Assembly (NCBI GenBank): GCA_964359835.1
Contig: CAYHUT010000001.1
Location: 1-32,211 of the forward strand
Source: Candidatus Woesearchaeota archaeon
GTDB lineage: Archaea; Nanobdellota; Nanobdellia; SCGC-AAA011-G17; GW2011-AR18
Length of the DNA stretch: 32,211 bases
Direction: 5' to 3'
Shown here: positions 17,792 to 17,993 of the stretch, piece by piece
Layout of the letters: each line of letters begins with the position of its first letter
Numbering within the stretch: position 1 is the first letter of the stretch
Translations under genes and position numbers: made by a program
The notes under the pieces: generated by a model
The model's database searches: none
Told to the model about the DNA's origin: nothing
Seen by the model: only the letters and a program-made list of their open reading frames with translations

Positions 17792-17993
17792 TTTTTATGT
17801 TAAGACACTTGACTAAAACTACATTTGTCAAGAACAATTCCTTGAGTATTTTAAAAATCACTTGATTTTCCCAGTCCCAAAAACGAGCGCCTTTTAAATC
17901 ACATCCCACGAGAAAATCTACTTAAGATTTTCTGTGTGTCAAAGTTTCTAAAAGAAACTTTTAACATTTAAGATGTGATTGTGCATCGTTTTT
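17792..17993 (+). repeat. Structured element copy B1: a 34-nt 5' module, a variable linker and a 119-nt core at 17875-17993. Candidate ncRNA or MITE-like element.
   Basis: The core is identical to 18518-18636. Stems: 17879-17890/17981-17993 (one bulged A, one G-T pair), 17897-17905/17972-17980, 17911-17919/17925-17933, 17941-17949/17953-17961. Ends in T5. Confidence 0.7.

What the first reader, a model, noticed from the sequence alone, without database searches (positions are those of the whole stretch)
17879..17993. The 115-nt repeat core folds into a closed multi-stem structure with about 39 base pairs
Read by eye:
- P1: AAAAACGAGCGC (17879-17890) pairs with GTGC-A-TCGTTTTT (17981-17993), with one bulged A and one G-T pair that is only tolerated as G-U in RNA.
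- P2: AATCACATC (17897-17905) pairs with GATGTGATT (17972-17980).
- Hairpin 1: AGAAAATCT-ACTTA-AGATTTTCT (17911-17933).
- Hairpin 2: AAAGTTTCT-AAA-AGAAACTTT (17941-17961).
About two thirds of the element is paired, and it ends in an oligo-T run, the usual archaeal termination signal. This is far more organised than a chance AT-rich palindrome. It suggests a small structured RNA gene, or alternatively a DNA cruciform/MITE with terminal inverted repeats AAAAACGA...TCGTTTTT.
Basis: seen in the sequence. Interest (0 to 1): 0.75.

Follow-up and report, generated by a model that had tools for sequence, protein, structure and literature searches.

The report
Strain-private hairpin-rich mobile repeat beside oriC
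The predicted fold is real, but the sequence is most likely a small non-coding "jumping" repeat that recently landed twice next to the replication origin of one DPANN archaeal strain, not a conserved RNA gene.

Summary
All four helices sit at the stated coordinates, and the 115-nt core folds far better than shuffled sequence (RNA -37.9 kcal/mol, z -7.6). The fold does not favour one strand. The minus strand folds as well or better, single-stranded DNA gives z -8.9, and the terminal T5 run is mirrored on the other strand.

The core is the 3' part of a larger unit: a 34-nt 5' box, a variable middle and a 118-nt core. The unit occurs twice, 665 nt apart and in the same orientation: 17792-17993 upstream of a PRC-barrel gene, and 18457-18636 upstream of LonB. 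The cores are 100% identical.

The locus is a DPANN (Woesearchaeota/Nanoarchaeota-like) replication origin, with PolD, Cdc6/Orc1, an inverted ORB pair and an AT-rich unwinding region. Every related strain that covers a site lacks the unit there (three at site 1, five at site 2), and the missing spacing matches its length. Both gene promoters lie downstream of the copies.

Rfam, seed scans of three large DNA collections, phage and plasmid searches and a covariance model found no further copies.

Best reading: a strain-private, MITE-like non-autonomous mobile repeat built of nested palindromes. Covariation could not be tested, so an RNA product is not excluded.

The parts
17792..17993 (+). Copy 1 of the inserted unit (202 nt), 40 bp outside ORB2 and about 105 nt upstream of the PRC-barrel promoter
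   Evidence: Direct repeat. Absent from L001, L050 and L054. The spacing from the ORB2 end to the PRC ATG is 399 nt here, against 210, 225 and 196 nt in those relatives.
17792..17825 (+). 5' box of copy 1: TTTTTATGTTAAGACACTTGACTAAAACTACATT
   Evidence: Two matches in the window, 0 expected by chance. It contains a weak TATA-like TTTTTATG; the local promoter consensus is AAAcCTTTATAWA.
17826..17875 (+). Variable middle of copy 1 (50 nt). It lacks the 3' arm of the long 5' hairpin seen in copy 2.
   Evidence: Alignment of the two copies and fold of copy 1.
17876..17993 (+). Core of copy 1 (118 nt): P1, P2 and two 9-bp hairpins, closed by the imperfect terminal inverted repeat AAAAACGAGCGC / GTGCATCGTTTTT
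   Evidence: Folds. 100% identical to 18519-18636.
18457..18636 (+). Copy 2 of the inserted unit (180 nt), between the PRC-barrel stop codon and the LonB promoter
   Evidence: Absent from L001, L052, L053, L054 and L056. The spacing from the PRC stop to the Lon ATG is 319 nt here, against 131-149 nt in those relatives.
18457..18490 (+). 5' box of copy 2: TTTTTATGTCAAGGCACTTGACTAAAACTACATT (2 substitutions relative to copy 1)
18464..18515 (+). Long 5' hairpin, intact only in copy 2: TCAAGGCAC ... ACTACATTC-TTTA-GAATGTAGT ... GTGCCTTGA
   Evidence: Fold of copy 2: -66.9 kcal/mol, z -9.8. Sequence read.
18519..18636 (+). Core of copy 2, identical to the core of copy 1
17141..17158 (-). ORB1 (context): origin recognition box TCCACACGAAATATAGGT next to cdc6/orc1
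   Evidence: 2 matches, 0.04 expected. Conserved in relatives.
17735..17752 (+). ORB2 (context): the inverted partner of ORB1. About 575 bp of very AT-rich DNA lies between the two boxes.
18097..18109 (+). PRC-barrel promoter (BRE/TATA, CCTTTATAAATAA), downstream of copy 1 (context)
   Evidence: Identical in L001, L050, L052 and L053. Consensus derived.
18682..18694 (+). LonB promoter (CACCTTATAAATC), downstream of copy 2 (context)
   Evidence: Conserved in L002 and L053; the TATA element CTTATAAA is also kept in L001 and L052.

Best explanation
The 115-nt fold belongs to a 180-200-nt non-coding unit that behaves like a small non-autonomous mobile element: a MITE-like interspersed repeat. The unit has a 34-nt 5' box, a variable middle (which completes a long hairpin in copy 2) and a 118-nt core made of nested inverted repeats.

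Shown: the unit entered two AT-rich intergenic sites on one side of the replication origin in this strain's lineage only, in the same orientation. The closed multi-stem structure follows from the palindromic DNA architecture, namely a terminal inverted repeat AAAAACGA.../...TCGTTTTT enclosing further palindromes.

Inferred: a transposase or recombinase encoded elsewhere in the genome moved it. The ends of the whole unit are asymmetric and hairpin-bearing, and both copies follow a T-run. This fits a single-strand 'peel-and-paste' (IS200/IS605-like, PATE-type) route about as well as a classical cut-and-paste MITE route. The element is not needed for origin function or for expression of the PRC-barrel or LonB genes.
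For: - Presence/absence: L001, L050 and L054 lack copy 1, and L001, L052, L053, L054 and L056 lack copy 2, while the flanking promoters, ORB box and genes align.
- Spacing: the excess in the window equals the unit length, 399 vs 196-225 nt at site 1 and 319 vs 131-149 nt at site 2.
- Recent copying: the two cores are 118/118 identical, while the surrounding intergenic DNA differs freely between strains.
- Same strain elsewhere: a 596-nt ENA contig from Hainich groundwater is 100% identical to 17916-18511 and starts inside core 1.
- No strand preference: fold energies are similar on both strands and as DNA, and T5 is present on both strands.
- Not a known or widespread RNA: no Rfam family matches, and seed scans of 596 Gb of reference genomes, JGI metagenomes and IMG/VR gave only chance matches limited to the seed.
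- Not a leader: both gene promoters lie downstream of the copies and are conserved in relatives that lack the element.
- Precedent: a census of prokaryotic MITEs reports very high MITE densities in DPANN genomes, including a Woesearchaea genome (PMC11602168).
Against: - Only two copies are known, both within 0.9 kb. The rest of the genome could not be searched, so dispersal across the genome is unproven.
- No transposase is encoded in the 32-kb window.
- The full inserted unit has no convincing terminal inverted repeats; only the core does. This was compared by eye, not computed.
- Target-site duplications are ambiguous. Both copies are flanked by TTTTTRT on both sides, which could be a duplication, a target preference or part of the element.
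- The 5' module has diverged (2 substitutions in 34 nt plus a different middle) while the core has not. A single recent transposition of one master copy does not explain this simply.
- Local duplication or gene conversion near the origin cannot be excluded.
Confidence: 0.6

Rival explanations
1. A strain-specific small structured RNA gene, possibly mobile. The 5' box acts as a weak BRE/TATA promoter, transcription starts near the end of the box (about 17821-17825 and 18486-18490), the transcript carries a variable 5' segment followed by the structured core, and it stops at the T5 run.
For: - The fold is very stable (z -7.6).
- T5 lies directly after the closing helix.
- The conserved 5' box ends about 27-30 nt downstream of its TTTAT motif. 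In this organism's leaderless genes that is roughly the TATA-to-start distance (inference).
- The core is perfectly conserved while the 5' part diverged.
Against: - TTTTTATG departs from the local TATA consensus TTTATAWA and has no AAAcC BRE.
- A start site there would cut off the 5' arm of the perfect hairpin in copy 2.
- The opposite strand folds as well or better and also ends in T5.
- The unit is absent from all relatives that cover the sites and from Rfam.
- Covariation cannot be tested, because the cores are identical.
Confidence: 0.2
2. A specific version of the mobile-element reading: an IS200/IS605-derived non-autonomous element (PATE). The 5' hairpin is the left end and the core is the right end, which may retain a TnpB-type guide-RNA (omega RNA) scaffold. 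A Y1 TnpA moves it as single-stranded DNA at the replication fork.
For: - The ends are asymmetric, with hairpins near both ends and no inverted repeat spanning the whole unit (by eye).
- Both copies follow a T-run and end in T5, which resembles the similar left and right cleavage motifs of this family.
- Both copies have the same orientation on one replichore, immediately beside oriC.
- Conservation stops exactly at the 3' boundary and is followed by unrelated sequence, as with omega-RNA scaffolds.
- PATEs and their guide RNAs are described in PMC10055086 (only the abstract was seen).
Against: - No tnpA or tnpB gene lies in the window.
- No Rfam hit was found to any family, transposon-associated or otherwise.
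- The left and right hairpins do not resemble each other.
- Copy 1 lacks an intact 5' hairpin.
- With only two copies, orientation and target arguments carry almost no statistical weight.
Confidence: 0.1
3. A cis-acting regulatory or insulating structure (leader, attenuator or terminator) serving the PRC-barrel and LonB genes, or a DNA structural element of the replication origin.
For: - Each copy sits upstream of a gene on the same strand.
- Copy 1 starts 40 bp from ORB2.
- A stem followed by T5 could stop read-through transcription.
Against: - The conserved promoters of both genes lie downstream of the copies, so the copies are not in the 5' UTRs.
- Relatives with the same origin, PRC-barrel and LonB genes lack the element entirely.
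- T-runs already follow the PRC stop codon before copy 2 begins.
Confidence: 0.05

Closest known systems
Prokaryotic MITEs, including the archaeal and DPANN MITEs in the census of PMC11602168
   Same: Small, non-coding and intergenic. It has an inverted-repeat architecture that folds into stable hairpins, near-identical copies, and presence/absence differences between close strains. It is restricted to a narrow taxon.
   Different: The unit that was actually inserted has no clear terminal inverted repeats; only its 118-nt core does. The target-site duplication is unresolved. Only two copies are known, and no partner transposase has been identified.
Modular small interspersed repeats of bacteria: Neisseria Correia elements and pneumococcal BOX / RUP (recalled from memory, not tested here)
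   Same: Elements of 100-200 nt built from conserved end modules with a variable or deletable middle. They have strong predicted secondary structure and sit in intergenic regions next to promoters.
   Different: There is no sequence relationship, and the host is an archaeon. Those families have tens to hundreds of copies per genome; copy number here is unknown.
IS200/IS605-derived PATEs and their TnpB omega-RNA scaffolds (PMC10055086)
   Same: Hairpins near asymmetric ends, a structured 3' module whose conservation stops at the element boundary, and a plausible link to replication-fork single-stranded DNA.
   Different: No TnpA or TnpB gene is nearby, no homology to a known scaffold was found, the target motif is undefined, and copy 1 lacks an intact left hairpin.
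Archaeal small non-coding RNA genes (generic; Rfam families)
   Same: A compact multi-helix fold of about 115 nt followed by an oligo-T run.
   Different: No Rfam match, no conservation in sister strains, a fold that works equally on both strands, a weak promoter, and no expression data.

Membership tests
MITE (classical, derived from a DDE transposon) | Short (under about 600 bp) with no coding capacity | tested here: met
   The units are 180 and 202 nt. All six reading frames are closed by stop codons.
MITE (classical, derived from a DDE transposon) | Terminal inverted repeats at the ends of the mobile unit | tested here: inconclusive
   The core has an imperfect 12-13-bp inverted repeat, AAAAACGAGCGC / GTGCATCGTTTTT. 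The inserted unit begins 84 nt (copy 1) or 62 nt (copy 2) upstream of the core, at the 5' box. Compared by eye, that start is not the inverse of the 3' end.
MITE (classical, derived from a DDE transposon) | Target-site duplication flanking each copy | tested here: inconclusive
   Both copies carry TTTTTAT on the left, and TTTTTAT (copy 1) or TTTTTGT (copy 2) on the right. The empty sites in L050 and L052 are T-rich and too diverged to fix the junction.
MITE (classical, derived from a DDE transposon) | Insertion polymorphism between related genomes | tested here: met
   Three relatives lack copy 1 and five lack copy 2. The spacing differences equal the unit lengths.
MITE (classical, derived from a DDE transposon) | Multiple dispersed copies in the genome, and a related autonomous IS with matching ends | not testable with these tools
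   Only the 32-kb window of this genome is available, and the genome was not found in the reference-genome collection searched. There are no other copies in the window or in the syntenic loci and no transposase in the window.
IS200/IS605-derived PATE / omega-RNA module | Hairpins near both ends, without terminal inverted repeats | tested here: inconclusive
   Copy 2 has a perfect 5' hairpin and the 3' multi-hairpin core. Copy 1 lacks the 3' arm of the 5' hairpin.
IS200/IS605-derived PATE / omega-RNA module | Insertion 3' of a fixed 4-5-nt target, with no target-site duplication | tested here: inconclusive
   Both copies follow a T-run. Two copies in AT-rich DNA cannot define a target.
IS200/IS605-derived PATE / omega-RNA module | A cognate TnpA or TnpB in the genome, or homology to a known guide-RNA scaffold | tested here: not met
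   No such gene lies in the window, and Rfam gives no match even at E <= 10. The rest of the genome could not be tested.
Known RNA family (Rfam 15) | Match to a covariance model at or near the gathering score | tested here: not met
   There are 0 matches at gathering thresholds over the whole window. At E <= 10 over 17000-18800 only two weak chance matches appear, and neither lies on the element. No tRNA or tmRNA was found.
Structured non-coding RNA gene (generic) | Helices supported by compensatory substitutions among homologues | not testable with these tools
   The only two copies are 100% identical in the core. No diverged homologue was found.
Structured non-coding RNA gene (generic) | Own promoter and terminator on one defined strand | tested here: inconclusive
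   TTTTTATG is only a weak match to the local consensus AAAcCTTTATAWA. T5 occurs at the 3' end on both strands, and the fold is as good on the minus strand.
Cis-regulatory leader / riboswitch | Located between the promoter and the start codon of the regulated gene | tested here: not met
   The conserved BRE/TATA elements at 18097-18109 and 18682-18694 lie downstream of the copies.
Integron attC site / gene cassette | R''/R' core sites (RYYYAAC / GTTRRRY) and a cassette gene that travels with the site | tested here: not met
   The ends read AAAAACG / CGTTTTT and do not fit these core sites (read from the sequence). The PRC-barrel gene is present with its own promoter in relatives that have no repeat.
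Origin repeat (ORB / mini-ORB) | Conserved in orthologous origins; binding motif for Orc1/Cdc6 | tested here: not met
   The ORB pair is conserved in relatives and the repeat is not.

The most novel reading that the evidence does not exclude
The unit is a self-contained mobile small-RNA module. It would have a weak promoter in the 5' box, a copy-specific variable segment, a conserved structured scaffold and a T5 stop. That would make it a transposon-borne guide or scaffold RNA (omega-RNA-like or bridge-RNA-like) that works with a nuclease or recombinase encoded elsewhere in a DPANN genome. The variable middle or the 3' flank would then specify the target.
Probability: 0.08. Interest if true: 0.65.

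Novelty: new member of a known kind. Interest (0 to 1): 0.25.

Why it matters
If the reading is right, this is an ordinary piece of genome dynamics: an unclassified small mobile repeat in an uncultured groundwater DPANN archaeon.

It has practical value in three ways. It marks a recent insertion event that separates strains. It shows that the DNA just outside an archaeal origin, and upstream of the PRC-barrel and LonB promoters, tolerates 180-200-nt hairpin-rich insertions. It also warns that strong fold z-scores in AT-rich archaeal intergenic DNA can come from palindromic mobile DNA and not from RNA genes.

It would matter more only if further copies or transcript data showed a strand-specific RNA that works with a transposon-encoded nuclease.

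Tried and rejected
**Searches that found nothing**
- Rfam at gathering thresholds (whole window) and at E <= 10 (17000-18800): no match on the element. ARAGORN: no tRNA or tmRNA.
- Reference genomes, seed CCCAAAAACGAGCGCCTT: 14 bacterial hits, all limited to the seed. The window's own genome did not appear, so copy number could not be measured.
- JGI metagenomes, seed TGATTGTGCATCGTTTTT: 25 hits, all limited to the seed.
- IMG/VR, four seeds: only chance hits.
- blastn against phage and plasmid records: no match.
- Six-frame peptides of the element against 5.8 billion predicted proteins, to catch spurious ORFs called over other copies: no hit.
- The window's own LonB protein is not indexed for contig look-up, and the cluster look-up gave no accession or name.

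**Leads that did not hold up**
- Covariance model of the core over the window and ten related loci: it found only the two copies, their own reverse strands, and a weak 22-26-bit hit at window 28665-28766 and its syntenic site in L001. The sequence similarity of that hit to the core is not above background, so I rejected it as a family member.
- A contig (L002) that starts just downstream of where copy 2 would end carries no element sequence, so it says nothing either way.
- L050 has a different gene after the PRC-barrel gene. It is a methyltransferase, not a transposase.

**Readings considered and rejected**
- Riboswitch or leader: the promoters are downstream.
- attC site or integron cassette: the core sites are missing.
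- att sites of an integrated element, or a tandem duplication: the PRC-barrel gene is single-copy and native.
- ORB-type origin repeat: absent from relatives with the same origin.
- H/ACA or C/D sRNA, judged by eye: the 9-bp stems are perfect with no pseudouridylation pocket, and there are no box motifs.

**Not resolved**
- A global alignment meant to pin the insertion junction and any target-site duplication was unreliable in this low-complexity DNA.

Full report
**1. The observation**

RNAfold reproduces them as the minimum-free-energy structure and adds a CAC/GTG extension of hairpin 1 and a further 3-bp helix around hairpin 2. The result is 45 pairs and -37.9 kcal/mol, against -15.3 ± 3.0 for 200 dinucleotide-preserving shuffles (z = -7.6; no shuffle folds as well). 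The structure is therefore real and far beyond chance.

It is not specific to one strand or to RNA:
- The reverse complement folds to -39.5 kcal/mol (z -7.0).
- The plus strand with DNA parameters gives z -8.9.
- For the complete copies the minus strand is slightly more stable: -66.7 vs -61.8 kcal/mol for copy 2.
- The oligo-T 'terminator' is the 3' half of the terminal inverted repeat AAAAACG...CGTTTTT, so the other strand also ends in T5.

**2. What the repeat is made of**

The core occurs twice, at 17876-17993 and 18519-18636, and is identical at 118/118 positions. Each core is preceded by:
- a conserved 34-nt box, TTTTTATGTYAAGRCACTTGACTAAAACTACATT (17792-17825 and 18457-18490; two matches against 0 expected);
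- a middle segment that differs between the copies, 50 nt in copy 1 and 28 nt in copy 2.

In copy 2 the box and the middle form a perfect long hairpin (18464-18515), and the whole 186-nt stretch folds to -66.9 kcal/mol (z -9.8). In copy 1 the 3' arm of that hairpin is replaced by unrelated sequence.

**3. Genomic context**

The LonB protein's closest named relatives are from Woesearchaeota, Nanoarchaeota and 'Nanoarchaeia' MAGs, so the host is a DPANN archaeon. The window carries, in order:

| Feature | Coordinates | Strand |
|---|---|---|
| PolD large subunit | 10711-14340 | - |
| PolD small subunit | 14214-15872 | - |
| Cdc6/Orc1 | 15882-17084 | - |
| Intergenic region of about 1 kb (18% GC over 17001-18000) | 17085-18151 | |
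| PRC-barrel gene (86 aa) | 18152-18412 | + |
| LonB | 18732-20603 | + |
| ArgRS | 21191-22834 | + |

An inverted pair of origin recognition boxes, TCCACACGAAMTAWAGGT, lies at 17141-17158 (-) and 17735-17752 (+). The pair brackets about 575 bp of very AT-rich DNA. This is a typical archaeal oriC. Copy 1 begins 40 bp outside ORB2, and copy 2 lies between the PRC-barrel stop codon and the LonB promoter.

**4. Comparison with relatives**

Look-ups with the LonB and PRC-barrel proteins retrieved the same locus from related strains. PRC-barrel gene DNA identity to the window is 82-94% for the six informative relatives (L001, L050, L052, L053, L054, L056); two more distant loci at 71-82% (L003, L057) were not scored because they carry an extra gene between PRC and LonB.

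- No relative whose contig covers a site carries the unit there. L001, L050 and L054 lack copy 1. L001, L052, L053, L054 and L056 lack copy 2.
- The ORB box, both promoters and both genes align across the strains.
- ORB2 end to PRC ATG is 399 nt in the window, against 210, 225 and 196 nt in L001, L050 and L054. The excess is 174-203 nt and copy 1 is 202 nt.
- PRC stop to Lon ATG is 319 nt in the window, against 131-149 nt in five relatives. The excess is 170-188 nt and copy 2 is 180 nt.
- A 596-nt ENA contig from Hainich groundwater is 100% identical to 17916-18511 and starts inside core 1, so it comes from the same strain.

Both copies are therefore insertions private to this strain's lineage, and the inserted unit includes the 5' box and the middle as well as the core.

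**5. What this rules out**

- The conserved BRE/TATA elements of the PRC-barrel gene (18097-18109) and LonB (18682-18694) lie downstream of the copies and are present in relatives without the element. The copies are therefore not 5' leaders or riboswitches.
- Relatives share the origin but not the repeat, so it is not an origin component.
- It matches no Rfam family and is not a tRNA or tmRNA.
- The ends do not fit integron attC core sites, and the PRC-barrel gene is native at this locus, so it is not a gene cassette.

**6. RNA gene or mobile DNA**

For an RNA gene:
- The fold is strong and T5 follows the closing helix.
- The conserved 5' box ends about 27-30 nt after its TTTAT motif. That is roughly the TATA-to-start distance in this organism's leaderless genes (inference).

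Against an RNA gene:
- TTTTTATG is a poor match to the local consensus AAAcCTTTATAWA and has no BRE.
- A start site there would remove the 5' arm of copy 2's perfect hairpin.
- The structure and the T-run are the same on both strands.
- All relatives lack the element.
The two cores are identical and no diverged homologue was found.

For mobile DNA:
- The presence/absence pattern at two separate sites.
- Perfect identity of the cores.
- A nested-palindrome architecture with a terminal inverted repeat on the core.
- Intergenic, AT-rich landing sites.
- The reported abundance of MITEs in DPANN genomes, including a Woesearchaea genome at about 105 MITEs per Mb (PMC11602168).

Weak points of the mobile-DNA reading:
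- Only two copies are known, and they are 665 nt apart (start to start).
- No transposase is encoded in the window.
- I saw no inverted repeat spanning the whole unit (compared by eye, not computed).
- Target-site duplications cannot be resolved. Both copies carry TTTTTAT on the left and TTTTTAT or TTTTTGT on the right.
- The 5' module has diverged while the core has not.

**7. Mechanism, with what is shown and what is inferred**

Shown:
- two strain-private insertions of a 180-202-nt hairpin-rich unit, in the same orientation, on one side of oriC;
- a fold that arises from palindromic DNA.

Inferred:
- mobilisation in trans by an enzyme encoded elsewhere in the genome.

The asymmetric hairpin-bearing ends, the T-run before each copy and the T5 at each 3' end, and the shared orientation beside the origin are compatible with single-strand 'peel-and-paste' transposition (IS200/IS605-type PATE; PMC10055086). 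With two copies this is only a lead. A DDE-type MITE with a T-rich target is equally possible.

**8. Search for further copies**

None of these found another copy:
- seed scans of 596 Gb of reference genomes, JGI metagenomes and IMG/VR, which gave only chance matches limited to the seed;
- phage and plasmid collections;
- a covariance model of the core over all related loci;
- a search for spurious ORFs overlapping the element among 5.8 billion predicted proteins.

The model's only other hit was window 28665-28766 and its syntenic site in L001 (22-26 bits). This is a conserved two-hairpin region between convergent genes. Its sequence similarity to the core is at background level.

**9. Verdict**

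I file the element as a new, unclassified member of the known class of small non-autonomous interspersed repeats, with modest interest.

Noticed in passing
window 17141-17158 (-) and 17735-17752 (+), with 17159-17734 between them: A clear archaeal replication origin: an inverted ORB pair TCCACACGAAMTAWAGGT (each box followed by a G-rich GTGGG-type string) brackets about 575 bp of very AT-rich DNA. It sits next to cdc6/orc1 and the two PolD subunit genes. The ORB boxes are conserved in related DPANN contigs (L001, L050, and diverged versions in L003 and L054).
   Followed up: partly
window 28665-28766; L001 20569-20677: A conserved two-hairpin region at the 3' end of ORF 28145-28690, between convergent genes: CACTGAAAAATTTC-AAA-GAAATTTTTGGTG followed by GCAGAT-TTT-ATCTGT. 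L001 keeps the second stem through compensatory changes (GCAAAT...ATTTGC) and has the loop of the first hairpin inverted (AAA to TTT). It is probably a bidirectional terminator-like structure. It was a weak hit to the core model, but its sequence similarity to the core is at background level.
   Followed up: partly
window 24750-24835: GC-rich palindromic repeats, GTCTACGACGTGTCGTAGAC and two further GACGTCTACGACAC-type half-sites, lie just upstream of the promoter of ORF 24900-25577, which has weak winged-helix hits. This looks like an operator array for a local regulator.
   Followed up: no
window 24167-24542: Three diverged copies (64-71% identity) of a 55-nt direct repeat, AACTCTCACTTT..CTAAA..AAG.CC.A.TTA.CCT, in the 730-nt intergenic region after ORF 23362-24168. 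Their nature is unknown.
   Followed up: no
PRC-LonB intergenic region: window 18413-18731; L003 9561-9941; L057 726-1106; L050 610-1329: This intergenic slot varies between strains. Some relatives carry a 126-aa gene here (a zinc-finger protein in L003; no Pfam hit on record for the same-sized gene in L057). L050 carries a convergent SAM-methyltransferase gene in place of LonB. The window carries repeat copy 2. It appears to be a hotspot for insertions beside the origin.
   Followed up: partly
L051 (ENA ERZ1292622, contig Hain_H52_02um_R2_373596): A 596-nt contig 100% identical to window 17916-18511. The window strain is therefore present in Hainich (H52 well) groundwater, 0.2-µm fraction. 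The contig starts inside core 1, which is consistent with the assembly breaking at the repeat.
   Followed up: partly
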